From a virus (taxonomy: Duplodnaviria; Heunggongvirae; Uroviricota; Caudoviricetes): 11,220 nt of DNA. The stretch is from the IMG/VR virus record IMGVR_UViG_2529292832_000020. One strand, 5' to 3'. Both the position numbers and the translations under genes were made by a program. Of this stretch, positions 1 through 11,220 are shown in pieces. The notes beneath the pieces are model-generated. The model saw only the letters and a program-made list of their open reading frames with translations. It searched no databases and had not been told where the DNA came from. The number at the start of each line of letters is the position of its first letter. Position 1 is the stretch's first letter.

Positions 1-1254
1 ATGCTGGAACAAATGGGCATTGCCGCGAAGCAAGCCTCGTATAAATTAGCGCAACTCTCCAGCCGCGAAAAAAATCGCGTGCTGGAAAAAATCGCCGATG
101 AACTGGAAGCACAAAGCGAAATCATCCTCAACGCTAACGCCCAGGATGTTGCTGACGCGCGTGCCAATGGCCTTGGCGAAGCGATGCTTGACCGTCTGGC
201 ACTGACGCCCGCACGGCTGAAAGGCATTGCCGATGATGTGCGCCAGGTGTGTAACCTCGCCGATCCGGTGGGGCAGGTAATCGATGGCAGCGTACTGGAC
301 AGCGGCCTGCGTCTTGAGCGTCGTCGCGTACCGCTGGGGGTTATTGGCGTGATTTATGAAGCGCGCCCGAACGTGACGGTTGATGTCGCTTCGCTGTGCC
401 TGAAAACCGGTAATGCGGTGATCCTGCGCGGTGGCAAAGAAACGTGTCGCACTAACGCTGCAACGGTGGCGGTGATTCAGGACGCCCTGAAATCCTGCGG
501 CTTACCGGCGGGTGCCGTGCAGGCGATTGATAATCCTGACCGTGCGCTGGTCAGTGAAATGCTGCGTATGGATAAATACATCGACATGCTGATCCCGCGT
601 GGTGGCGCTGGTTTGCATAAACTGTGCCGTGAACAGTCGACAATCCCGGTGATCACAGGTGGTATAGGCGTATGCCATATTTACGTTGATGAAAGTGTAG
701 AGATCGCTGAAGCATTAAAAGTGATCGTCAACGCGAAAACTCAGCGTCCGAGCACATGTAATACGGTTGAAACGTTGCTGGTGAATAAAAACATCGCCGA
801 TAGCTTCCTGCCCGCATTAAGCAAACAAATGGCGGAAAGCGGCGTGACATTACACGCAGATGCAGCTGCACTGGCGCAGTTGCAGGCAGGCCCTGCGAAG
901 GTGGTTGCTGTTAAAGCCGAAGAGTATGACGATGAGTTTCTGTCATTAGATTTGAACGTCAAAATCGTCAGCGATCTTGACGATGCCATCGCCCATATTC
1001 GTGAACACGGCACACAACACTCCGATGCGATCCTGACCCGCGATATGCGCAACGCCCAGCGTTTTGTTAACGAAGTGGATTCGTCCGCTGTTTACGTTAA
1101 CGCCTCTACGCGTTTTACCGACGGCGGCCAGTTTGGTCTGGGTGCGGAAGTGGCGGTAAGCACACAAAAACTCCACGCGCGTGGCCCAATGGGGCTGGAA
1201 GCACTGACCACTTACAAGTGGATCGGCATTGGTGATTACACCATTCGTGCGTAA
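1..1254 (+). CDS. proA: gamma-glutamyl phosphate reductase (glutamate-5-semialdehyde dehydrogenase), complete
   Basis: 417-aa ORF beginning at the ATG at position 1; the translation is recognisable as full-length enterobacterial ProA; followed by thrW as in the E. coli proBA-thrW arrangement. Confidence 0.93.
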
Positions 1255-1368
1255 ATAAAACCGGGTGATGCAAAAGTAGCCATTTGATTCACAAGGCCAT
1301 TGACGCATCGCCCGGTTAGTTTTAACCTTGTCCACCGTGATTCACGTTCGTGAACATGTCCTTTCAGG

Positions 1369-1444
1369 GCCGATATAGCTCAGTTGGTAGAGCAGCGCAT
1401 TCGTAATGCGAAGGTCGTAGGTTCGACTCCTATTATCGGCACCA
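1369..1444 (+). tRNA. thrW: tRNA-Thr (anticodon CGU)
   Basis: 76-nt sequence GCCGATATAGCTCAGTTGGTAGAGCAGCGCATTCGTAATGCGAAGGTCGTAGGTTCGACTCCTATTATCGGCACCA with D-loop AGCTCAGTTGGTAGAGC, T-loop GGTTCGACTCC and 3' CCA; anticodon loop TTCGTAA gives CGT. Sits immediately 3' of proA. Confidence 0.9.
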
Positions 1445-1458
1445 TTTAAATCAATAAG

Positions 1459-2622
1459 TTACACATCATTAGTACCTTCCTTATTTTTTGACTGGGACAA
1501 ATTTGGGACCGATGGGTTTAGGATCGAGTCTATTTGCCGTGCGTGTTCGGTAAGGTGATTAGGTGCAAGGTGAGCATATCGACGAACCATTTCGATAGAC
1601 TCCCAGCCTCCCATTTCCTGTAACACTGACAACGGGACTCCGGCTTGAACCAGCCAACTTGCCCATGTGTGTCTCAAGTCGTGAAATCTGAAATCATCAA
1701 TACCAGCCCGTCTCAGCGCCGCTTTCCAGGCTGTGTTTGCGTCATACCGCATCTTCCTGACTGTTGGCGCTTTCGTTCCGTCTGGTTTGGTACAGCTTTC
1801 CTTGTACACAAATACCCAACGGTGATGATTCCCGATTTGTTTTTTCAATACGCGACATGCAGTATCATTCAGCGCAACGCCAATTGCGCGGTTTGATTTA
1901 CTCTCTTCCGGGTTTATCCATGCCACCCGGCGCTGCATATCTATTTGTTGCCATTCAAGGTTGATGATGTTCGAGCGTCTTAGGCCTGTTGCCAGTGCAA
2001 ATTCAACAACAGACTTTAATGGCTCCGGACATTCATCAATCAGCCTTTGTGCTTCATGGGGCTCCAGCCAGCGGATCCGTTTATTCTTTGGTTGGGGCAC
2101 TTTAATAATTGGTGCCTTATCCAGCATTTTCCATTCACGCTCTGCGGCTCTTAGTAGGGCCTTTATAAATGAAAGATGCGTAGCCTTCGTTGCAACGGAC
2201 GCTGGTTTTGGCGTGTATTCTGGAACAGGTTTCCCTTTTTTTCTGCATGCTTCTGCCCTGAGTTTCCAGTTTTCCTCATGACGCCGGTTCGTCATTTTCT
2301 GCATTGCTGAATAAATTTTTGATTCAGTAATGTCTCTTAGTTGCATTCCTGCGAAATGTTGAAGCCAGAATCCGATCCGGCTTTTGTCATCGTCCAGTGA
2401 TTTTTTATGTGCTTTCTCTTCAAGCCACCTGACACACGCTTCCTCGAACGTTATATCAGGTATTTCACCAAGTTTGCTGACCCGCCATGCTTCAGCCTTT
2501 AGCTTGTCATGGAGTTCTGTCGCCTGCCTTTTGTCCTTTGTTCCAAGAGACTGTTTAAATCTTTTACCGTTCGGCAATGTGAAACTGGCGTACCATATTT
2601 CACCTCTGCGGAAGAGTGACAT
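1459..2622 (-). CDS. int: tyrosine-recombinase phage integrase (P22-type Int)
   Basis: 387-aa ORF, ATG at 2620-2622 with AGGAA Shine-Dalgarno upstream. N-terminus [33 protein letters not shown] matches my memory of P22-family Int; C-terminal RHTWAS...VRRYAHL is the catalytic R/H-x-x-R/Y region. Stop codon lies 15 nt from the tRNA 3' end. Confidence 0.9.
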
Positions 2623-2849
2623 TTTCTTTCCTCTGTTATGCCATCACCCGCGCTCACCTGGACAGTATGCAGCGGAGACTGAAGAGCCGCAATGCAGGCT
2701 TGTCGTGTTGTGAGGTAAGGAGATTTATTCTTAGTGGGATCTTTGCGTGTTGCCTGAAGACGCCCTGTGCGTATCCAGTTAATGGCAGTCGGTCTGGATA
2801 TCTTGAGAAAATGACAGGCCTCATCGAGTGTGAGGCTGTATGGCTCCAT
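2499..2849 (-). CDS. xis: excisionase (P22-type Xis), about 116 aa
   Basis: Started from the internal ATG at 2847-2849 ([36 protein letters not shown]...), not the track's longer 144-aa version. This ATG shares one base with the upstream gene's stop (TAATG). The 3' end overlaps the int start. Recognised as a P22-like Xis from memory. Confidence 0.7.
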
Positions 2850-3154
2850 TATTTCACCTCTTGCTGTGACATTGTTGAAAAATGGATACCAGCTCGTTGC
2901 TGCCAGACGATCCAACCGAGAGTCATATCCCATGCCATGTATTCGTTATCGCCGTTTTTTGCTCTCCGACGATCTACTAAGTCACCGAAACGCTTTTCCA
3001 TGAATAATTCATAAGCTTCGCGTTCATCTGGTTCTACTTCCAGAGATAGGAGTGCGATTTCATAAGCACGGCGCTCAATATCGTCTCGCACGTCAAGGCT
3101 GCTGATACGCTCTTTAATTTCTTTAATCAGTTCTTTGTCGGTAAAAGTGGTCAT
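2849..3154 (-). CDS. hypothetical phage early protein (YfdT-like, 101 aa)
   Basis: ATG at 3152-3154 overlapping the upstream stop (TAATG). Length and position match my recollection of yfdT next to the excisionase in KplE1/CPS-53; no function inferable from the sequence. Confidence 0.55.
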   Translation of the reverse strand: MTTFTDKELIKEIKERISSLDVRDDIERRAYEIALLSLEVEPDEREAYELFMEKRFGDLVDRRRAKNGDNEYMAWDMTLGWIVWQQRAGIHFSTMSQQEVK

Positions 3155-3516
3155 TATGCTCCAGCCTCCGGTGCTTTTGGCATTACTGCCCAGTGAGTGA
3201 TATTGACGTTTTCAAGGTCCCCGACCTGAAATGTCCACTGCCATTCTCCGGTTTCTTTTTGTCCCCAGGTGTACCAGAGAGAACGCCAGCCAATTAGCCA
3301 GCCTTCTCCGTTAGCATCGAATAACAAAACACTTTCATTTGCTGGTGGCAGTTCAGTTGACACTGGTATTACTTTGTTTTCCTGTGCTGCACATTTAGCT
3401 TCAAGCGCATCGAATTTACGCACTAGGTATTCAGCATCTGTTTCATTTACTTTCAGATCTCGCGGTACACATCTCCCACGAAGAAACCCTTCCATTTCGA
3501 AAACATTCATGCGCAT
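3154..3516 (-). CDS. DUF551-like phage protein (YfdS-like, about 118-120 aa)
   Basis: ORF with Trp-rich core and a C-terminal ...ITHWAVMPKAPE resembling the THWMPLP signature I associate with DUF551. ATG at 3514-3516; an alternative ATG at 3508-3510 forms an ATGA overlap with the upstream stop. Confidence 0.55.
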   Translation of the reverse strand: MRMNVFEMEGFLRGRCVPRDLKVNETDAEYLVRKFDALEAKCAAQENKVIPVSTELPPANESVLLFDANGEGWLIGWRSLWYTWGQKETGEWQWTFQVGDLENVNITHWAVMPKAPEAGA

Positions 3517-4043
3517 TTGCGTAACTCCGATAACTCGTTAAAGCGTTCCATAAACATCCCGTAGGCATGGCCCGGTGCCAGTGGAATCACGTTGAACATC
3601 TCTGTTGCCGGGATACCTTCCAGTACAGGCCAGAAAGAGCCATCATCAAGCCCGAGATCGCGGCGTTCGGTTGCCAGCATGATGAGATCGGCATATTTCA
3701 CGGGCGTACTCATAACTGGGGGTAACCCGTATTTCTCACGGATTACGGCGTCTATTTTTTCTTCCATTTGTTTATAGTCAGGAAGAAGGCGTTTCAGTGG
3801 TGCGGGAATGTCCTGGCAATACGCTTCTGTTGCATCATGCATTAACGCTTCAAAAGCAAATTCCTGCGGCACCAGCTGGCTGCAAAGAACCGCATGTTGG
3901 GCGACGCTGTAGAAGTGCGAAAGATGACCGGCAAAGCGACAGATATTTGAAAGGGAAACCGCGATATCGTTAATATCGATGTCGTCTTTATTTATCTTGT
4001 CATAATAAAAATGCTTCCCGGAAAAAGTTTTAATAAATGACAT
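3507..4043 (-). CDS. HD-domain phosphohydrolase, probable 5'-deoxynucleotidase (YfdR-like, 178 aa)
   Basis: The track ORF starts at a GTG (4070); I place the start at the ATG at 4041-4043, preceded by GGAG 6 nt upstream. HD-domain residues are visible (VAQHAV..., ...LMHDATEAY). Matches the length I recall for K-12 YfdR. Confidence 0.78.
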   Translation of the reverse strand: MSFIKTFSGKHFYYDKINKDDIDINDIAVSLSNICRFAGHLSHFYSVAQHAVLCSQLVPQEFAFEALMHDATEAYCQDIPAPLKRLLPDYKQMEEKIDAVIREKYGLPPVMSTPVKYADLIMLATERRDLGLDDGSFWPVLEGIPATEMFNVIPLAPGHAYGMFMERFNELSELRKCA

Positions 4044-4170
4044 TTTGTTCTCCACGTATATGCGCTGCACCGCGCTGAATTCTGGTAAAAAGAATCCCTC
4101 ACCATCCGGCGATTATTGAGTAAATTACGTTTCCATAAATGCCCCCGCAGGGGCATTTGCAGTAATGAAA

Positions 4171-4995
4171 TCAGGCGGTGAAAGTACCAATAAAGGTTTC
4201 TACTTTGCTGTCCTTGAATTTCTCAACAAGCAGATCACGAAATTCGTTAGCCATTTCTTCCTGCACCGCCTCCAGCTGAATAATGCGCAGAACCAGTACA
4301 GGACGATCGCCAGTGATAATACTGAGGCGTAATTTAAACGGACGTTCTTTCAGACCTTCAAACGGAACGCATTTAAATTCAAATGCCACTGGCATAATGT
4401 CTTTGGTCTTCGCTTCGACAGACTCCATCAGGGAGCGTTTGCCGCTGAAGTCATTATCTTCAAAATCAGCGGTCTGGTTTGCTTCAATCGTGATTTTACG
4501 GACAGCCGCAGCCGCTTTTGTTGCCTGAATAGCGTCACCATTAGCATCAAAGCCCACAAGATAGTCGGCCCAGTCTTCAATCCATTCTGCTAGTGACTTC
4601 TGGGAGTTACGCTCGCCGTTAACAGACAACAGAGCAGAGAACGGTGCTGTCTTTTTCAGTTTGAGTGTGGCGGTGTTATCTGCGTGACCTGGTTCATCAA
4701 TAGTACCCAGGTTAAGCACACTGACGGCACGCATATTATCAGCATCGATAAAGCAGCGGGTGCCTTCATCTGCAAGATCTTTAGAATAACGGGTAAAGTC
4801 ATCGATGCTGGCAGTGGAAAGCGCACCACGGAAACGGAAGCGATTTAAATTAAATTTTTCCAGATCATGAATGCGGAAATTCTCAGGCAATGCCACAGCA
4901 TCGGCACCAATCTTACTGATAATTTCATTAACACCCTGAGCAGAAATAAGGGCATGGATTTGATTAATTGCGGTTGCGTCTAAGTTCTGAGACAT
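4171..4995 (-). CDS. DUF2303-family phage protein (YfdQ-like, 274 aa)
   Basis: 274-aa ORF, ATG at 4993-4995 with GAGGA Shine-Dalgarno. Length and sequence gestalt match K-12 YfdQ as I recall it; function unknown. Confidence 0.75.
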
Positions 4996-5060
4996 AATAA
5001 GTCCTCACTATATAAAGATATTCAGTGATGAGATAAATAATCAGTTAATTAAAAACGATA

Positions 5061-5423
5061 TTAACGACCTGCTGCGCGGAGTTTTCCGTCAGGTTCACCG
5101 GCAAGAGTCAGTAATTGTCCTTGGTCTTCCTGCAGAATAGTCAGGCGACCACCGCGATTGACATACATCGGCGTTTCGGTGGTGTCTTCTTCGGAAATTT
5201 TCCCGCGGTTAGTCGGGCGAACATATGAGAGTTTGTGTTTGATTTTCACTCGGTTCTCATCAAACGGTTCGATTTCCAGGTTGAGCGAGACCTTACCTTT
5301 GGTTTTCGTGTTCATCACACCGGAAGCGACTTCACTGAGAACTGCGCCGATTTTGGTTTCAAATACGCCGCCGTCCAGCTCCCCGATAAATGCCTGCACA
5401 TCAGTACTGCGTTCGCTAGCCAT
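5061..5423 (-). CDS. hypothetical phage early protein (YfdP-like, 120 aa)
   Basis: The track's 226-aa ORF has a Cys/Trp/Arg-rich non-protein-like N-terminal extension. I start at the internal ATG at 5421-5423 (MASERSTDVQAFIGELDGG...), which has a GAGGAG Shine-Dalgarno 7 nt upstream and gives 120 aa. Confidence 0.68.
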   Translation of the reverse strand: MASERSTDVQAFIGELDGGVFETKIGAVLSEVASGVMNTKTKGKVSLNLEIEPFDENRVKIKHKLSYVRPTNRGKISEEDTTETPMYVNRGGRLTILQEDQGQLLTLAGEPDGKLRAAGR

Positions 5424-5561
5424 TTTGCTGCTCCTCATCATATCGACCCTGCAAGGTCGGTTAGTTTCTCCACAAAACAGAGAAGAACACCTGCGGTGAC
5501 TGCCGCCCGGATGGATTGGGTTATGAGCCCGTCGTCCGGTGATGCTCTTCTCTGTTTTGTA

Positions 5562-5605
5562 AAAAGGACGGTACCAGCCGGAAGCAAGGGTACAAGCTGG
5601 TACCG
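5562..5605 (-). terminator. candidate intrinsic terminator or attenuator on the minus strand, upstream of the early-left operon
   Basis: On the minus strand, a 10-bp perfect stem (plus-strand CGGTACCAGC at 5569-5578 and GCTGGTACCG at 5596-5605) with a 17-nt loop is followed within 2 nt by UUUUU (plus-strand A-run 5561-5565). The large loop weakens the call. Confidence 0.35.
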
Positions 5606-5827
5606 CCAAGACTACACACAGCATAAAGTTGTGGTGCCGGGTGCCTCCCGGTGCCTGGCGAAGGTTGTACACCAGACGGGTGGGTATCCACAGAAGGTCG
5701 ACTGTCAGCCTCAACCTTAACCCGCGTGCGCTGAGCCGCATTCACCACAACGCTAAGGATTCTCTCTGGTTGAAAATACTTAGCTGTTATGTGCCTGCTT
5801 TTAGCCACATCAGGCGAGGTGGACCTG

Positions 5828-5866
5828 GTTATTCCCCAACAACAAGGATTCGGTATAATCTGGATA
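5828..5866 (+). promoter_or_regulatory. candidate promoter of the AT-rich insert operon (consensus -10 TATAAT, weak -35)
   Basis: Exact TATAAT at 5854-5859, about 30 nt upstream of the AGGAAGGA ribosome-binding site of micro-ORF A. No good -35 (ATTCCC/TTCCCC). Flanked by direct repeats CCCAACAACAAGG (5835-5847) and CCCAACAACAGG (5868-5879). Confidence 0.35.
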
Positions 5867-5891
5867 TCCCAACAACAGGTAGGAAGGAAAT

Positions 5892-5975
5892 ATGTACGTA
5901 GATAGCAATGAAAAATTTCATGTTCCGGTAAATCAGAGACCAGCACCGATCCCTGAGCCGAAACCTGAAATGTAA
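5892..5975 (+). CDS. micro-ORF A, 27-aa proline-rich peptide (MYVDSNEKFHVPVNQRPAPIPEPKPEM)
   Basis: ATG at 5892 preceded by AGGAAGGA; stop TAA at 5973-5975, 10 nt before the membrane-protein ATG. Paralogous to micro-ORFs B and C with synonymous codon differences. Too short for the supplied ORF track. Confidence 0.4.
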   Translation: MYVDSNEKFHVPVNQRPAPIPEPKPEM

Positions 5976-5985
5976 GGGAATAGAG

Positions 5986-6465
5986 ATGACTCGAGACGAT
6001 CTAGCATTCGATATTCATTATTCTTTCTTTCTTGAGAAAATGAATTACACCCTTTTAAATCGGATAGACAAGAGCATAACTCTTGTTCTCATTGTCTTGG
6101 GCTTTTCTGTTTTTGCGCCATATAGCAATATGTTTATTTTTGGCGCATCTGTAGCTATTTTGTCGGTGCTTCAATTGGTATACCAATTTGGGCAGGAAGC
6201 TGGCTTATCAAAGGAACAGATGCGACAGTATAAAAGGTTGATTGTTGAGTTTTCCTCCCTTTCTGATGACGAACTACGCACTCGGTTTTTAAAGGTTCAA
6301 GACGCTGATAGTAATCCATGGAGATCTTTACAAGATGCTGCGTTCAAACGGACCTGTATTGCGCTGGGACGTGTTGATGAGTCAGAAATATCATTCATGC
6401 ATAGCGTTATCGCATGGTTTGCTGGAGATTTGCCTCGGTCAAAAAGGTGTAATAATGACAAATAG
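5986..6465 (+). CDS. two-transmembrane membrane protein of unknown family (159 aa); candidate exclusion/defence effector
   Basis: ATG at 5986. Two hydrophobic helices (ITLVLIVLGFSVFAPY and MFIFGASVAILSVLQLVYQFG) separated by a 3-residue turn, then a charged soluble C-terminal region of about 95 aa. Opposite strand to all neighbouring phage genes, AT-rich, with its own -10 and terminator. Confidence 0.75.
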   Translation: MTRDDLAFDIHYSFFLEKMNYTLLNRIDKSITLVLIVLGFSVFAPYSNMFIFGASVAILSVLQLVYQFGQEAGLSKEQMRQYKRLIVEFSSLSDDELRTRFLKVQDADSNPWRSLQDAAFKRTCIALGRVDESEISFMHSVIAWFAGDLPRSKRCNNDK

Positions 6466-6571
6466 AATTCCCATAATCCCTAACCATGTACCTCCAAAGC
6501 CCAGACCACCATCACCAAAGTCACACAGGCTTTATGAGTATGAATTAATAATGGATTCTATATTGAGATGA
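6455..6571 (+). CDS. micro-ORF B, 38-aa proline-rich peptide (MTNRIPIIPNHVPPKPRPPSPKSHRLYEYELIMDSILR)
   Basis: ATG at 6455 with AAGGTG 5 nt upstream; overlaps the last 11 nt of the membrane-protein gene in another frame. Shares the HVP...PRPPSP core with A and C. Confidence 0.35.
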   Translation: MTNRIPIIPNHVPPKPRPPSPKSHRLYEYELIMDSILR

Positions 6572-6575
6572 CCAA

Positions 6576-6665
6576 ATGAATGCATTTATATATACATGGA
6601 AAGAGGATCATATACCCTTAAAACCTCGTCCTTCACCGCCAGAACCGAAGCCAAAATCCCGTTAA
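6576..6665 (+). CDS. micro-ORF C, 29-aa proline-rich peptide (MNAFIYTWKEDHIPLKPRPSPPEPKPKSR)
   Basis: ATG at 6576, 5 nt after the ORF B stop; stop TAA at 6663-6665, about 30 nt before the terminator. Core HIPLKPRPSPPEPKP aligns with A (HVPVNQRPAPIPEPKP) using different codons (R as CGT vs AGA; P, E, K synonymous changes). Confidence 0.35.
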   Translation: MNAFIYTWKEDHIPLKPRPSPPEPKPKSR

Positions 6666-6693
6666 GTGTTGGGGATCTCCAGATTGTTAAAGA

Positions 6694-6722
6694 GCGAAGC
6701 GTCCTATAGGGCGCTTTTTTGT
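6694..6722 (+). terminator. rho-independent terminator of the insert operon
   Basis: GC-rich hairpin GCGTCC-TATA-GGGCGC (6699-6714, one G-U pair) followed by TTTTTTGTT (6715-6723) on the plus strand, directly after micro-ORF C. Confidence 0.6.
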
Positions 6723-6805
6723 TGCTAACGAATCATCCTGGACTTCATATGCCCCAGGCGGCTACTTCGTGGGCGTCCTGCCTGTTCGTTGTTTCGCTTG
6801 GGTAC

Positions 6806-6833
6806 ATTATGTATCTCAAAGGTACATTGTCAA
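6806..6833 (-). promoter_or_regulatory. candidate leftward early promoter (PL-like) with an operator-like palindrome in the spacer
   Basis: Minus strand reads TTGACA (plus 6828-6833), a 16-nt spacer, then CATAAT (plus 6806-6811). The spacer contains ATGTAC-N7-ATACAT (plus 6809-6827), one mismatch from the OR palindromes. Lies immediately downstream of the repressor terminator. Confidence 0.45.
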
Positions 6834-6834
6834 G

Positions 6835-6860
6835 TATAAAAAAACCTGCCGAAGCAGGTT
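6835..6860 (-). terminator. rho-independent terminator of the repressor gene
   Basis: On the minus strand, 13 nt after the repressor stop: 7-bp stem AACCTGC/GCAGGTT (plus 6843-6849 and 6854-6860) with 4-nt loop, followed by UUUUUUUA (plus-strand A-run 6836-6842). Confidence 0.55.
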
Positions 6861-6872
6861 CATAAACATTGA

Positions 6873-7547
6873 TTAGGCTTTGATTTTGTATCTTCTTGGT
6901 TTTCCTGAGAAAATCACTGTACCAATTATAGAGCAATTACCGTTGATCTTAATGTAAGGCTCAGGCCAGTTTGGGTTTAACGCTTTGAGATAACGCTGTG
7001 TCCCATCTTCTATCAACCTTTTGAAGGTGGTTTCACCTGTATCGTGCATCAATGCAATAACGTCGTCACCGTGGCAGGCAGGTACTTCAGGATCGACAAA
7101 AATCATGTCTCCCGGGCGGTACTCATCAATCATTGAATCACCTATCACCCGCAAGATATAAGTCATTTCCCCACAGGGTACAGGGCAGGGATACGTTTCT
7201 GCTGTGCTCAAATCAACCTCAGAATATCCAACTTCTTTCCATGCTCCGGCCTGTACCCATGATATGACAGGGACTAATGTGATTTGTTTATTAGTGATTG
7301 AAACATCAGGTTTTTTTGTGATGTTCGTTGTCTGGTGTTCTTGATCGAGCCATCCGACAGGCAGGTCGAAACATTTTTCGATGTGTCGTGCCATGCTGTC
7401 ACCGATATTTTTAGTAGCACCATCTCCCATAAACCTGCTGGTCTGGGTTGGCTCGCGATCAATCATAGTGGCAAAGGAAGAATTCCCGCCAACACCATCT
7501 CTCAGTTTTCTGGCGTTAGACCGCCGGATGTCATGGATTGTTTTCAT
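6873..7547 (-). CDS. CI/C2-type prophage repressor (N-terminal DNA-binding domain plus C-terminal S24 LexA-like peptidase domain)
   Basis: 224-aa ORF, ATG at 7545-7547 with no Shine-Dalgarno (consistent with a leaderless transcript, as for lambda cI from PRM). S24 motifs are visible (ILRVIGDSM with catalytic Ser; Lys in ...TFKRLIEDG...). The C-terminal ...LNPNWPEPYIKINGNCSIIG resembles P22 C2 as I recall it. Confidence 0.88.
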   Translation of the reverse strand: MKTIHDIRRSNARKLRDGVGGNSSFATMIDREPTQTSRFMGDGATKNIGDSMARHIEKCFDLPVGWLDQEHQTTNITKKPDVSITNKQITLVPVISWVQAGAWKEVGYSEVDLSTAETYPCPVPCGEMTYILRVIGDSMIDEYRPGDMIFVDPEVPACHGDDVIALMHDTGETTFKRLIEDGTQRYLKALNPNWPEPYIKINGNCSIIGTVIFSGKPRRYKIKA

Positions 7548-7563
7548 AACGAAATTAAAACCC

Positions 7564-7582
7564 TTGTACCGTTAAGGTACAA
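7564..7582. promoter_or_regulatory. operator-like palindrome TTGTAC-N7-GTACAA (upstream OR site)
   Basis: Perfect 6-bp inverted half-sites with a 7-bp spacer in the repressor/cro intergenic region, just upstream of the PR -35. Confidence 0.5.
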
Positions 7583-7587
7583 GTATC

Positions 7588-7615
7588 TTGAAGGTTCATT
7601 TCAATCATGTAATAT
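7588..7615 (+). promoter_or_regulatory. PR-like promoter for the cro-like operon
   Basis: -35 TTGAAG (7588-7593), 16-nt spacer, -10 TAATAT (7610-7615); cro-like ATG at 7638 with GGAGGT ribosome-binding site. Confidence 0.5.
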
Positions 7616-7632
7616 GTACACCGGAGGTACAT
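7614..7632. promoter_or_regulatory. operator-like palindrome ATGTAC-N7-GTACAT (PR-proximal OR site)
   Basis: Perfect inverted half-sites (the full inverted repeat is AATATGTAC...GTACATATT, 7611-7635), overlapping the PR -10/start region and the cro ribosome-binding site. Confidence 0.5.
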
Positions 7633-7637
7633 ATTGT

Positions 7638-7838
7638 ATGAAAGCGTATTGGGACTCTTTAACCAAAGAACAGCAGGGCGAGTTAGCCGGAAAAGTTGGC
7701 TCAACACCTGGCTACTTACGGCTGGTTTTCAATGGCTATAAAAAAGCCAGTTTTGTGCTGGCTAAAAAACTTGAGCAATGCACGTCAGGTGCAATTACGA
7801 AATCTGACTTAAGACCGGATATCTATCCGAAAGATTAG
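7638..7838 (+). CDS. Cro-like helix-turn-helix regulator (66 aa)
   Basis: ATG at 7638 preceded by GGAGGT; the track's longer in-frame ORF is an antisense read-through of the repressor gene. Small basic protein divergent from the repressor, in the canonical cro position. Confidence 0.72.
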   Translation: MKAYWDSLTKEQQGELAGKVGSTPGYLRLVFNGYKKASFVLAKKLEQCTSGAITKSDLRPDIYPKD

Positions 7839-7869
7839 CAGAACACTTTCAATTTTTAACCACAGAACG

Positions 7870-8439
7870 ATGAGGCTAATCGTGGGTAAGCATCACTGGA
7901 AAATAGAAAAACAGCCTGAGTGGTACGTGAAAGCTGTCAGAAAAACTATCGCGGCGTTGCCGGGTGGTTACGCTGAAGCGGCTGACTGGCTCGATGTAAC
8001 AGAAAACGCTTTATTCAACCGCCTTCGTGCAGATGGCGATCAGATTTTCCCGCTGGGATGGGCAATGGTTTTACAGCGTGCTGGTGGCACTCACTTCATT
8101 GCTGATGCTGTGGCGCAGTCTGCAAATGGCGTCTTTGTGTCTCTTCCTGACGTCGAGGATGTGGACAACGCCGATATTAACCAGCGTCTGCTGGAAGTCA
8201 TTGAACAGATCGGCAGTTATTCAAAACAGATTCGTTCAGCAATCGAAGACGGTGTAGTGGAACCGCATGAGAAGACAGCAATTAACGACGAGCTGTATCT
8301 CTCAATTTCGAAGCTGCAGGAGCATGCAGCACTTGTCTACAAAATTTTTTGCATTTCAGAAAGTAATGACGCCCGCGAGTGTGCAGCTCCGGGCGTCGTG
8401 GCGTCGATTGCTTCTGGTTGTGGAGAAACTAACGCATGA
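7870..8439 (+). CDS. phage-186-CII-like regulatory protein (189 aa)
   Basis: Follows cro. The central segment [51 protein letters not shown] aligns in pattern with my recollection of phage 186 CII. The start could instead be GTG at 7882, which has GAGG 6 nt upstream. Confidence 0.6.
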
Positions 8440-8774
8440 ACAGTTTAACAACACACTACCGTCGCTCGCAACTGATTGCGCTTCCTGTACCGGGTGGAAA
8501 AGCGAAGGTGGAATATTGCTATGCAGTGAATGTACCAGGTGACAGGGAAATTGTAACCCACAGCTTTGCAGAGTGGGCTGTGGGTGATTTCAACCGGCAG
8601 AAGGAGACAGTCCTTTGCGACAAGTTAACCGCTGGTTCAAAGATCACTACGGAGTGCCCGTCAGAGTCATTCGTTGGGAGCCGGAAACACAACGGGTTAT
8701 CTACCTCCGCGAAGGTTATGAGCATGAATGCTTCAGTCCGCTCGAACAGTTTCGTCGTAAATTCAGGGAAATAG
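8436..8774 (+). CDS. hypothetical protein, possibly frameshifted (only the N-terminal ~60 aa look protein-like)
   Basis: ATG at 8436 overlaps the CII-like stop (ATGA) with GGAG upstream. From about 8610 onward the frame gives a Ser-rich low-complexity tail, while another frame (8615..8794) looks like real protein. Confidence 0.3.
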
Positions 8775-8794
8775 AGGTCGGTCATGAGCACTAA
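8615..8794 (+). CDS. hypothetical small protein from a TTG start (59 aa), or the C-terminal part of a frameshifted gene
   Basis: Open frame with AAGGAG 8 nt upstream of TTG at 8615; translation [59 protein letters not shown] has balanced composition. Overlaps the O-like start by 11 nt. Below the track's length threshold. Confidence 0.3.
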
Positions 8795-9740
8795 ATTAAC
8801 CGGCTATGTATGGGATGGTTGCGCTGCATCAGGCATGAAGTTATCCAGCGTGGCAATTATGGCCCGCCTGGCTGATTTCAGTAATGACGAAGGTGTGTGC
8901 TGGCCATCAATTGAAACCATTGCCCGTCAGATTGGAGCGGGGATGAGTACCGTCAGAACGGCTATCGCACGGCTGGAAGCAGAAGGCTGGTTAACGCGTA
9001 AGGCGCGTCGCCAGGGTAACCGCAATGCGTCGAATGTTTATCAGCTTAACGTTGCGAAGCTTCAGGCAGCGGCATTTTCTCAACTGTCAGATTCTGACCC
9101 GTCAAAATCTGACGCATCAAAATCTGACGCATCAAAATCTGACCCGTCAAAATTTGATGCGTCGAAATCTGGCAAAAAAGCGGGTTTTCACCCGTCAGAA
9201 TCTGGCGGGGATCCGTCAGTAAAATCAAAACATGATCCGTCAGATAAAAAACCTTCTCGTCCGGACGCTTCGCAACCGGACACGCAGACGGCTGAACAGG
9301 ATTTTTTAACTCGCCATCCTGATGCGGTTGTATTCAGCCCTAAAAAGTGCCAGTGGGGGACGCAGGATGATTTGACCTGCGCACAGTGGCTCTGGAAAAA
9401 AATCATCGCCCTGTACGAGCAGGCTGCCGAATGTGACGGCGAGGTGGTTCGTCCCAAAGAACCGAACTGGACAGCCTGGGCAAACGAAATTCGCCTGATG
9501 TGTGTACAGGATGGGCGTACTCACAAACAAATCTGCGAGATGTACAGCCGCGTCAGCCGCGATCCGTTCTGGTGCCGTAACGTGCTCAGCCCGTCGAAGT
9601 TGCGGGAAAAATGGGATGAGCTTTCCCTGCGCTTATCGCCGTCCGTCAGCACGTACACCGAAAAACGCGAAGACCCGTACTTCAAAGCCAGTTACGACAA
9701 CGTGGACTACAGCCAGATCCCGGCAGGATTCAGGGGGTGA
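8784..9740 (+). CDS. phage replication initiation protein (O-like; N-terminal helix-turn-helix domain, repeat-encoded linker, C-terminal domain)
   Basis: 318-aa ORF, ATG at 8784 with GAGG upstream. N-terminal ...SVAIMARLADFSNDEGVCWPSIETIARQIGAGMSTVRTAIARLEAEGWLT is a winged-helix replication-initiator domain; the central DPSKSDASKSDASKSDPSKFDASKS repeat is encoded by tandem DNA iterons, as in lambda O. Confidence 0.8.
   Translation: MSTKLTGYVWDGCAASGMKLSSVAIMARLADFSNDEGVCWPSIETIARQIGAGMSTVRTAIARLEAEGWLTRKARRQGNRNASNVYQLNVAKLQAAAFSQLSDSDPSKSDASKSDASKSDPSKFDASKSGKKAGFHPSESGGDPSVKSKHDPSDKKPSRPDASQPDTQTAEQDFLTRHPDAVVFSPKKCQWGTQDDLTCAQWLWKKIIALYEQAAECDGEVVRPKEPNWTAWANEIRLMCVQDGRTHKQICEMYSRVSRDPFWCRNVLSPSKLREKWDELSLRLSPSVSTYTEKREDPYFKASYDNVDYSQIPAGFRG
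9084..9255 (+). repeat. iteron array, probable replication origin embedded in the initiator gene
   Basis: Six tandem 15-bp units (consensus TCAAAATCTGACGCA) from 9088 to 9177, then a short A-rich stretch GGCAAAAAAG and further CCGTCAG-containing repeats (9191-9245). Confidence 0.6.
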
Positions 9741-9742
9741 TC

Positions 9743-10231
9743 ATGAGTCTTTTGAATGACGTTCAGAAATTCATTGAAGCCCATCCGGGCTGTACTTCCG
9801 GAGACATTGCGGATGCTTTTGCAGGTTACTCACGGCAGCGCGTACTGCAGTCAGCAAGCAAGTTACGTCAGAGTGGGCGTGTGGCTCACCGTTGTGAAGG
9901 AGATACACGCAGACATTTCCCACGCCTGACTGAGAGAGCGCAGGAGCCGGAACCACAACCAGTTCGTGAAACCAGACCTGTGCGCAATTTCTATGTCGGC
10001 ACTAACGATCCCCGGGTGATTTTGTGCCTGACCCGCCAGGCGGAAGAACTGGAGTCCAGGGGCTTATACCGTCGTGCTGCAACGGTGTGGATGGCGGCAT
10101 TCCGTGAAAGCCACTCCCAGCCAGAACGAAACAATTTTCTGGCGCGTCGTGAGCGGTGCTTACGGAAAAGCAGCAAGCGCGCTGCATCGGGTGAAGAGTG
10201 GTATCTGTCAGGGAATTACGTGGGGGCTTAA
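9743..10231 (+). CDS. ANR-family / PerC-like transcriptional regulator domain protein
   Basis: Start placed at ATG 9743 (track starts at GTG 9737) with GGGGG upstream, 2 nt after the O-like stop. The C-terminal LYRRAATVWMAAFRES...ERNNFLARRERC matches the ANR/PerC signature as I recall it. Confidence 0.5.
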   Translation: MSLLNDVQKFIEAHPGCTSGDIADAFAGYSRQRVLQSASKLRQSGRVAHRCEGDTRRHFPRLTERAQEPEPQPVRETRPVRNFYVGTNDPRVILCLTRQAEELESRGLYRRAATVWMAAFRESHSQPERNNFLARRERCLRKSSKRAASGEEWYLSGNYVGA

Positions 10232-10884
10232 TGAGTAATAAATATTGCCAGGCGCTGGTGGAGCTGCGGAACAAACCAGCCCATGAACTGAAGGAAGTGG
10301 GCGATCAGTGGCGCACGCCGGATAACATTTTCTGGGGAATTAACACCCTGTTTGGCCCGTTTGTTCTGGATCTGTTCACTGATGGTGATAACGCCAAATG
10401 TGCCGCTTATTACACTGCGGAAGACAACGCGCTGGCGCATGACTGGTCTGAACGTCTTGCGGAGCTTAAAGGTGCTGCCTTTGGTAATCCCCCGTACAGC
10501 CGCGCCAGTCAGCATGAAGGGCAATACATCACCGGCATGCGTTACATCATGAAGCATGCTAGTGCCATGCGTGATAAGGGCGGACGCTATGTTTTCCTGA
10601 TCAAAGCTGCCACCAGCGAAGTGTGGTGGCCGGAAGATGCAGATCATATTGCTTTTATTCGCGGGCGTATTGGTTTTGAACTGCCTGCCTGGTTTATCCC
10701 GAAGGACGAGAAGCAGGTGCCGACAGGCGCTTTCTTCGCTGGTGCTATTGCTGTTTTCGACAAGACCTGGAAGGGACCGGCAATCAGCTACATCGGGCGC
10801 GATGAACTTGAGGCATGTGGTGAGGCGTTTCTGGCGCAGGTTCGCCAGCAGGCAGAAAAACTGGTCAGGGAGATGGCGGCATGA
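10231..10884 (+). CDS. phage Dam-like DNA N6-adenine methyltransferase (orphan, 217 aa)
   Basis: ATG at 10231 overlapping the upstream stop (TAATG); the track starts at an upstream GTG. Catalytic NPPY motif present (AFGNPPYS); no restriction partner in the window. Confidence 0.82.
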   Translation: MSNKYCQALVELRNKPAHELKEVGDQWRTPDNIFWGINTLFGPFVLDLFTDGDNAKCAAYYTAEDNALAHDWSERLAELKGAAFGNPPYSRASQHEGQYITGMRYIMKHASAMRDKGGRYVFLIKAATSEVWWPEDADHIAFIRGRIGFELPAWFIPKDEKQVPTGAFFAGAIAVFDKTWKGPAISYIGRDELEACGEAFLAQVRQQAEKLVREMAA

Positions 10885-10944
10885 CGACGTTAACTCAATG
10901 CCAGCAGCAGGTGCTGGATATGCTGATTTCTTATCAGAAAGAAC
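10881..10944 (+). pseudogene. 5' remnant (about 21 codons) of a phage gene interrupted by IS66-family insertion
   Basis: ATG at 10881 in ATGA overlap with the dam stop; MTTLTQCQQQVLDMLISYQKE... then the reading frame runs into the IS terminal sequence starting at 10945. Confidence 0.35.
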
Positions 10945-11220
10945 GTAAGCGTCAACGGAGCACCGTATTGACGCTTATTTATTGGTGAGTACTACGTTCC
11001 ATGGCAGGAGTTCGTCAACACGGTTGGAGGGCCATTCCGGCAGTACGCTCAGAATATGGCGCAGATACGCTTCCGGATCGATACCGTTCAGTCGGCAGGT
11101 GCCGATCAGCCCGTACAGCAGTGCTCCACGCTCGCCGCCGTGATCGCTACCGAAGAACACGTAATTTTTCTTTCCGAGACAGACTGCACGAAGCGCTCTT
11201 TCCGCTGTGTTATTGTCCAC
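10945..11220 (-). mobile_element. IS66-family insertion sequence, terminal about 276 bp (element continues beyond the window)
   Basis: The plus strand begins GTAAGCGTCAACGG..., i.e. the element ends ...CGCTTAC in its own orientation, which matches the IS66-family terminus as I recall it. The transposase C-terminus is encoded 31 bp inside on the minus strand. Confidence 0.7.
10975..11220 (-). CDS. IS66-family transposase (TnpC), C-terminal fragment; 5' part lies outside the window
   Basis: Translation ...DNNTAERALRAVCLGKKNYVFFGSDHGGERGALLYGLIGTCRLNGIDPEAYLRHILSVLPEWPSNRVDELLPWNVVLTNK matches the conserved C-terminus of IS66 transposases; the frame is open to the window edge. Confidence 0.85.
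   Translation of the reverse strand: MDNNTAERALRAVCLGKKNYVFFGSDHGGERGALLYGLIGTCRLNGIDPEAYLRHILSVLPEWPSNRVDELLPWNVVLTNK

What the first reader, a model, noticed from the sequence alone, without database searches (positions are those of the whole stretch)
10881..11220. IS66-family element inserted into the gene after dam
The gene starting at 10881 (ATGA-coupled to dam) runs only about 21 codons before the sequence GTAAGCGTCAACGG... at 10945, which matches the IS66-family terminus as I recall it. A 10-bp perfect inverted repeat (TAAGCGTCAA / TTGACGCTTA, 12-nt spacer) sits inside the terminus. The transposase C-terminus is encoded 31 bp inside on the minus strand. The prophage is therefore interrupted and may be replication- or lysis-defective downstream.
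Basis: partly seen in the sequence, partly recalled or inferred. Interest (0 to 1): 0.45.

Follow-up and report, generated by a model that had tools for sequence, protein, structure and literature searches.

The report
Known IS66-family element interrupting a prophage gene
The last 276 bases of the window are the end of a well-known E. coli insertion sequence (ISEc47, IS66 family) that has landed in a small prophage regulator gene just after dam; this is an ordinary event, and the far side cannot be seen because the draft contig ends inside the element.

Summary
The ORF at 10881 overlaps the dam stop codon by ATGA. It matches a 108-aa LexA-DNA-binding-domain prophage gene through 10946, then diverges. 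That gene is full length in 2223 of 5426 complete E. coli genomes. From 10945 to 11220 the sequence is 276/276 identical to the transposase-proximal end of the 2541-bp IS66-family element ISEc47. In four complete copies this element starts with GTAAGCG, ends with CGCTTAC and carries exact 8-bp target duplications. The 10-bp inverted repeat (10946-10955 / 10968-10977) is real. It is specific to the ISEc47/ISEc23 lineage and is not an IS66-family feature. The transposase stop codon lies at 10975-10977 on the minus strand. The window stops where the draft contig AQDZ01000006.1 stops, so the other IS end, the predicted duplication GAAAGAAC and the rest of the gene could not be found. The junction is absent from all the other collections searched. 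The gene is certainly knocked out. A polar effect on rusA through Q is only inferred. A replication defect is not supported, because the replication initiator gene lies upstream. Verdict: a known element at a new, strain-specific site; low interest.

The parts
10231..10884 (+). Phage N-6-adenine methyltransferase (dam), intact. Its stop codon overlaps the start of the next gene (ATGA).
   Evidence: PF05869 Dam, E = 9.7e-46. Annotated as phage N-6-adenine-methyltransferase in the 99.8% identical prophage.
10881..10944 (+). The native 5' part (21 codons plus 1 base) of a 108-aa prophage protein that consists only of a LexA DNA-binding domain. It is truncated by the IS.
   Evidence: Identical to L001 4682-4745. 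The full gene is 327 bp: PF01726 over residues 1-65 (E = 2.9e-19) and phrog_362 over residues 1-108. It is full length in 2223 of 5426 complete E. coli genomes.
10881..10988 (+). Fusion ORF of 35 aa: 21 native residues plus 14 residues read from the IS end, with the stop codon TGA at 10986-10988. It cannot contain the helix-turn-helix region.
   Evidence: This exact protein forms a one-member cluster seen on one contig, which occurs in three samples.
10937..10944 (.). Predicted 8-bp target site, GAAAGAAC. It should be repeated at the unseen far end of the IS.
   Evidence: Inferred from exact 8-bp duplications in 4 of 4 complete ISEc47 copies. Not observed here.
10945..11220 (-). The transposase-proximal (right) end of ISEc47, an IS66-family element: the first 276 of 2541 bp. 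The IS genes are read on the minus strand, towards dam.
   Evidence: 276/276 identical to L002 4001-4276. The terminus GTAAGCG lies at 10945-10951.
10945..10978 (.). Terminal hairpin: 10 pairs, a 2-nt bulge, then 4 pairs. It spans the terminal inverted repeat and the transposase stop codon.
   Evidence: It occurs only in ISEc47/ISEc23 among the 9 IS66-family right ends compared. The conserved sequence blocks are IS bases 1-7 (GTAAGCG) and 19-29 (CCGTATTGACG).
10975..11220 (-). The C-terminal 81 codons plus stop codon of the IS66-family DDE transposase (TnpC). It is cut off by the end of the contig.
   Evidence: PF13817 E = 2.5e-17; PF03050 E = 7e-8; NF033517 E = 7e-20, matching model positions 328-385 of 387.

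Best explanation
A copy of the 2541-bp IS66-family insertion sequence ISEc47 transposed into codon 22 of a small lambdoid-prophage gene. The gene encodes a 108-aa protein made only of a LexA-type DNA-binding domain. It lies between dam and rusA in a prophage integrated at the tRNA-Thr(CGU) gene next to proA.

The IS is oriented with tnpA-tnpB-tnpC on the minus strand, so its transposase-proximal end faces dam. Transposition by the DDE transposase should have duplicated the 8-bp target GAAAGAAC (10937-10944). The 3' part of the gene should resume after the far end of the IS.

Shown: the gene is destroyed. Only 21 native residues remain, fused to 14 IS-encoded residues.

Inferred: 2.5 kb of oppositely transcribed DNA now separates the early-right genes from rusA, KilA-N, DUF968/HNH and the Q antiterminator. 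The IS also begins with a stable hairpin followed by a T-rich stretch on the + strand. Together these may reduce read-through into Q and so reduce late-gene expression.

The assembler could not bridge the multi-copy IS, which is why the contig and the window stop 276 bp inside it.
For: - Identity to the uninterrupted prophage is 99.8% up to base 10946 and stops there.
- Bases 10945-11220 are 276/276 identical to ISEc47.
- Four complete copies in four strains are all 2541 bp and mutually identical. They start with GTAAGCG, end with CGCTTAC and are flanked by exact 8-bp duplications.
- Those copies carry the three IS66-family ORFs: HTH_Tnp_1, TnpB_IS66, and a transposase with LZ, zinc-finger, DDE_Tnp_IS66 and IS66_C domains.
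- The break falls at the exact IS terminus. This is what transposition predicts. A misassembly or a natural mosaic junction would not be expected to fall there.
- The contig ends at window position 11220.
- The full-length gene is common and sits between dam (or PerC) and rusA.
Against: - The far end of the IS, the target duplication and the 3' part of the gene were never seen.
- The 75-aa C-terminal remnant ORF is on record in the contig collection. None of the 10 places shown, out of 24 contigs read, came from the source assembly, so a long partner contig was not found.
- ORFs predicted to cross the far junction are not in the protein collection.
- Genomes with identical copies of this IS carry several to a dozen copies, so recombination between copies is possible.
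- No data bear on the polar effect or on prophage viability.
Confidence: 0.75

Rival explanations
1. The IS end is real, but the locus is not a simple insertion. After insertion, recombination between ISEc47 copies, or an IS-mediated adjacent deletion or inversion, joined this end to unrelated DNA. Alternatively, only a partial IS remnant sits here. In either case the rest of the prophage (rusA to Q and the late genes) would be elsewhere or lost.
For: - The far side was never seen; the contig ends in the IS.
- No long contig from the source assembly carrying the 3' remnant ORF was among those read.
- Strains with identical IS copies hold 4-7 places on the chromosome and about 6 on a plasmid.
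- This gene is rearrangement-prone. Another strain has a deletion from about nt 71 of the gene into Q.
Against: - All four complete copies inspected are simple insertions with target duplications.
- Failure to find the partner contig is weak evidence. Only 24 of 89 index blocks were read, and most contigs carrying this region are under 2 kb because lambdoid modules are repeated.
Confidence: 0.2
2. The junction is an assembly artefact: a chimeric contig end made by joining prophage reads to reads from an IS located elsewhere.
For: The source is a draft short-read assembly, the junction lies 276 bp from a contig end, and it is found in no other collection.
Against: - The break lies at the exact first base of the IS, within the 2-bp GT overlap. 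A random chimera would hit that position with a probability of about 1 in 2541.
- The same contig is reported in 3 samples.
Confidence: 0.03
3. The ORF at 10881 is naturally short and the sequence after it is native prophage sequence that merely resembles an IS end.
For: None found.
Against: - The gene is 327 bp in 2223 complete genomes.
- The downstream 276 bp are 100% identical to a mobile element found at unrelated chromosomal and plasmid sites.
Confidence: 0.01

Closest known systems
ISEc47 (IS66 family, classic three-ORF type), as annotated by NCBI PGAP in ETEC and other E. coli genomes
   Same: - 276/276 nt identity over the visible end.
- The same terminus (GTAAGCGTCAACGG...), the same transposase C-terminus and the same terminal hairpin.
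- Complete copies are 2541 bp with tnpA (144 aa), tnpB (116 aa), tnpC (537 aa) and 8-bp duplications.
   Different: Nothing in the visible sequence differs. Only the insertion site is new: it is absent from 5426 complete E. coli genomes. Only 11% of the element is visible.
ISEc23, ISKox1, ISEc8, ISEc22 and ISKpn24 (other enterobacterial IS66-family elements)
   Same: - The terminus GTAAGCG.
- The conserved subterminal block CCGTATTGACG at bases 19-29.
- A transposase C-terminal domain 70-96% identical to the one here.
   Different: Only ISEc23 shares the 14-pair terminal hairpin. The other elements fold at -4 to -10 kcal/mol, against -17.4 kcal/mol for the same 40-nt stretch here, and show no compensatory changes.
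IS679 / IS66 as characterised by Han et al. 2001 (J Bacteriol 183:4296) and surveyed by Gourbeyre et al. 2010 (Res Microbiol 161:136). I cite both from memory; neither is held in the library.
   Same: Three ORFs, a DDE transposase as the third ORF, 8-bp target duplication, and inverted repeats that begin with GTAAGCG. PMC12888890 independently describes the three-ORF layout and a GTAAGCG... inverted repeat for Pseudomonas IS66 members.
   Different: These are different family members. No experiment has been done on ISEc47 itself, as far as the one paper found that mentions it shows.

Membership tests
IS66 family of insertion sequences | DDE transposase of the IS66 type (Pfam DDE_Tnp_IS66 plus IS66_C; NCBIfam NF033517). 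| tested here: met
   The 81-aa fragment in the window matches PF13817 (63 bits, cut-off 30), PF03050 (32.6 bits, cut-off 23.1) and the NF033517 C-terminus (E = 7e-20). Its NF033517 score is below the whole-protein cut-off because it is a fragment. The full 537-aa protein of identical copies matches PF03050 at E = 2.8e-97 and NF033517 at 451 bits.
IS66 family of insertion sequences | Terminal inverted repeats that begin with 5'-GTAAGCG. | tested here: met
   GTAAGCG lies at 10945-10951, exactly where homology to the uninterrupted prophage ends. Both ends of the complete copies are GTAAGCGT...ACGCTTAC. The same terminus is found in 8 other IS66-family elements.
IS66 family of insertion sequences | Three-ORF organisation: tnpA, tnpB, then tnpC. 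| not testable with these tools
   Only 276 bp of this copy are in the contig. Copies identical over those 276 bp have HTH_Tnp_1 (144 aa), TnpB_IS66 (116 aa) and the 537-aa transposase, in that order.
IS66 family of insertion sequences | 8-bp target-site duplication. | not testable with these tools
   The far end lies outside the contig. The predicted far junction was not found in genome, metagenome or viral collections. Four of four complete ISEc47 copies elsewhere have exact 8-bp duplications.
ISEc47 (the specific element) | Near-identity of nucleotide sequence over the element. | tested here: met
   276/276 over the visible part, matching copies that PGAP names ISEc47. The remaining 2265 bp are unseen. 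ISfinder itself could not be queried.
LexA_DNA_bind (PF01726) prophage proteins, phrog_362 | A complete winged-helix LexA DNA-binding domain of about 65 aa. | tested here: not met
   The window keeps only residues 1-21 of the domain. The uninterrupted homologue matches PF01726 over residues 1-65 and phrog_362 over residues 1-108. The window's copy is a disrupted gene.

The most novel reading that the evidence does not exclude
The 14-pair hairpin at the transposase-proximal terminus of ISEc47/ISEc23 might be a functional, lineage-specific device rather than a by-product. It pairs the cleavage-site bases GTAAGCGTCAA with the conserved subterminal block CCGTATTGACG, and it contains the transposase stop codon. 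It could act as a terminator-like block to transcription entering from outside, which would strengthen the polarity on the prophage Q gene. It could also be a single-strand structure that modulates how the transposase uses this end.
Probability: 0.1. Interest if true: 0.3.

Novelty: already known. Interest (0 to 1): 0.08.

Why it matters
It matters little beyond annotation. It tells an annotator three things:
- The 35-aa ORF after dam is a disrupted gene, not a real small protein.
- The contig ends because of a multi-copy IS.
- This strain's thrW-site prophage carries a strain-specific IS insertion between its early genes and the Q antiterminator.

If the polar effect were real, the prophage might be less inducible. 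This is a common route of prophage decay. The insertion site could serve as a strain marker.

Tried and rejected
Searches for the far side of the IS all came back empty:
- An exact search for the observed junction in GTDB representative genomes, JGI metagenomes and IMG/VR found nothing.
- An exact search for the predicted far junction (ACGCTTAC GAAAGAAC GTGGCTTCC) in the same three collections found nothing.
- A megablast of 10200-11220 against 5426 complete E. coli genomes found no record spanning the junction.
- Look-up of the 35-aa fusion ORF found only the source contig, which ends at the window's end.
- The 75-aa remnant was reached through its cluster id. The 10 places shown (24 contigs were read, from 24 of the 89 index blocks) were unrelated contigs, either uninterrupted or starting inside the gene. 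None came from GCA_000354875.1.
- Three predicted ORFs that would cross the far junction are not in the protein collection.

Ideas considered and rejected:
- The hairpin as a family-wide feature. Seven of nine IS66-family ends lack it and show no compensatory changes.
- The 10881 ORF as naturally short.
- A replication defect, because the initiator gene is upstream.

Other dead ends:
- The simple terminator scan did not flag the IS-end hairpin. Its 12-nt outer loop or bulge falls outside the scan's rules, so the terminator reading remains an inference.
- Han et al. 2001 could not be read.

Full report
**What is in the sequence**

The window runs from proA (1-1254) through tRNA-Thr(CGU) (1369-1444) into a prophage. 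The prophage carries, in order:
- an integrase and yfdP-T-like genes;
- a ymfK-type S24 repressor with ymfT and ymfL;
- an O-like replication initiator (8784-9740);
- a PerC-family gene (9737-10231);
- a phage Dam methylase (10231-10884).

The whole stretch 1-10946 is 99.8% identical to E. coli strain E6 (NZ_CP104539) and similar in 209 other complete genomes. In every case the match stops at 10946.

**Checking the observation**

The ORF at 10881 starts inside the dam stop codon (ATGA). In strain E6 the same ORF is 327 bp, or 108 aa. It is annotated 'LexA family protein', covers the whole LexA_DNA_bind domain (PF01726 residues 1-65, E = 2.9e-19) and matches phrog_362 'transcriptional repressor' end to end. 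It is full length in 2223 of 5426 complete E. coli genomes, flanked by dam or PerC on one side and rusA on the other. It is therefore not naturally short.

The window copy is identical to that gene through 10946 and unrelated from 10947 onward. It reads on for 14 foreign codons to a stop codon at 10986-10988.

The foreign sequence 10945-11220 is 276/276 identical to copies of an element that NCBI annotates as 'IS66-like element ISEc47'.

**Where the IS starts**

The target and the IS share the dinucleotide GT, so the comparison alone leaves a 2-bp ambiguity. I resolved it with four complete ISEc47 copies from four strains: inside an amino-acid permease gene, next to a DUF932 gene, inside an ISAs1 transposase gene, and in the nin region of another lambdoid prophage. 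All four are 2541 bp and mutually identical. All begin with GTAAGCG, end with CGCTTAC, and are flanked directly by exact 8-bp duplications: ATATTACG, GATATTAA, GAAGTTTT and AATGCTTT.

**Family membership**

The 81-aa minus-strand fragment in the window matches the last 30 positions of PF03050 and all of PF13817. It also matches the C-terminus of NCBIfam NF033517.

The complete copies encode a 144-aa HTH protein (TnpA type), a 116-aa TnpB_IS66 protein, and a 537-aa transposase with leucine-zipper, zinc-finger, DDE and IS66_C domains. This is the classic three-ORF IS66 layout, also described in PMC12888890. Two defining features, the three ORFs and the target duplication, cannot be tested on this particular copy.

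**Why the far side is missing**

The 35-aa fusion protein is on record on a single contig, AQDZ01000006.1 of draft assembly GCA_000354875.1. That contig is 33,091 bp long, and its last base is the window's last base. A contig that ends a few hundred bases inside a multi-copy IS is the usual outcome of short-read assembly.

I searched for the observed junction and the predicted far junction in every collection available, and for the predicted remnant ORFs. Nothing turned up. The insertion appears specific to this strain or lineage; the contig is reported in 3 samples. Its completeness is an inference from how all the inspected copies behave.

**The hairpin**

The 10-bp arms extend to 14 pairs with a 2-nt bulge. 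The fold energy is -17.9 kcal/mol, z = -4.35. I compared the same end in eight other enterobacterial IS66-family elements: ISEc23, ISKox1, ISKpn24, ISEc8, ISEc22 and three unnamed ones.

All of them keep GTAAGCG at bases 1-7 and CCGTATTGACG at bases 19-29. Only ISEc23 keeps the pairing. The rest fold at -4.4 to -10.4 kcal/mol with no compensatory substitutions.

The conserved elements are thus sequence blocks, presumably the cleavage end and a transposase-binding site (inference). The hairpin is a lineage-specific consequence of bases 8-11 being TCAA. On the + strand it is followed by TTATTTATTGG, which is the reverse complement of the last transposase codons. It therefore looks somewhat like an intrinsic terminator for transcription entering from dam. 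The consensus scan did not flag it, and I treat this reading as speculative.

**Consequences**

Shown: the LexA-domain gene is destroyed, with only 21 of 108 residues left and the helix-turn-helix region lost.

Inferred: in the uninterrupted prophage the next genes on the same strand are rusA, a KilA-N gene, a DUF968/HNH gene and the Q antiterminator. An oppositely oriented 2.5-kb IS upstream of them could lower Q expression and hence late-gene expression, including lysis.

Not supported: a replication defect. The O-like initiator gene, with its internal 15-bp repeats (9093-9171), lies upstream and is intact.

**Rivals**

- A post-insertion rearrangement or a truncated IS cannot be excluded (about 0.2).
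- An assembly chimera is unlikely, because the break is at the exact IS terminus (about 0.03).
- A naturally short ORF is refuted.

**Verdict**

This is a known insertion sequence at a previously unrecorded site in a common prophage. It has routine annotation value and is of low interest.

Noticed in passing
window 9093-9171 (within ORF 8784-9740): There are 5.3 tandem copies of a 15-bp unit (TCTGACCCGTCAAAA), with overlapping imperfect inverted repeats. They lie inside the O-like replication initiator gene (phrog_391) and encode SKSDA-type peptide repeats. The arrangement resembles the ori iterons inside lambda O.
   Followed up: partly
window 1369-1444: A tRNA-Thr(CGU) gene lies between proA and the prophage integrase. 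It is evidently the prophage attachment site (the thrW locus).
   Followed up: partly
L026 2501-2571 (NZ_CM143725.1); L007-L013 contig starts: In another strain the same LexA-domain gene is cut at about nt 71 and joined to the inside of the Q gene, deleting rusA through the start of Q, with no IS present. Seven draft or metagenome contigs also begin at about nt 68-100 of this gene. A recombination or mosaic boundary seems to lie a few bases from the IS target at nt 57-64.
   Followed up: partly
L024 2701-5241 (NZ_CP025862.1): Another identical ISEc47 copy sits in the nin region of a different lambdoid prophage, between a small hypothetical gene and ybcN/ninE. The five target sites seen (four duplications plus the one predicted here) are all A+T-rich.
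   Followed up: no
window 10963-10973 (IS bases 19-29); L014-L021: The block CCGTATTGACG is invariant at bases 19-29 of the transposase-proximal end in all nine IS66-family elements compared, while the bases between it and the GTAAGCG terminus vary. It is probably a transposase recognition block.
   Followed up: partly
window 5986-6465 (= L003 5106-5585, + strand): A 159-aa ORF with no Pfam hit sits alone on the + strand between the leftward yfdP-type genes and the leftward ymfK repressor. It is annotated 'hypothetical protein' in strain E6 and could be a moron-like cargo gene.
   Followed up: no
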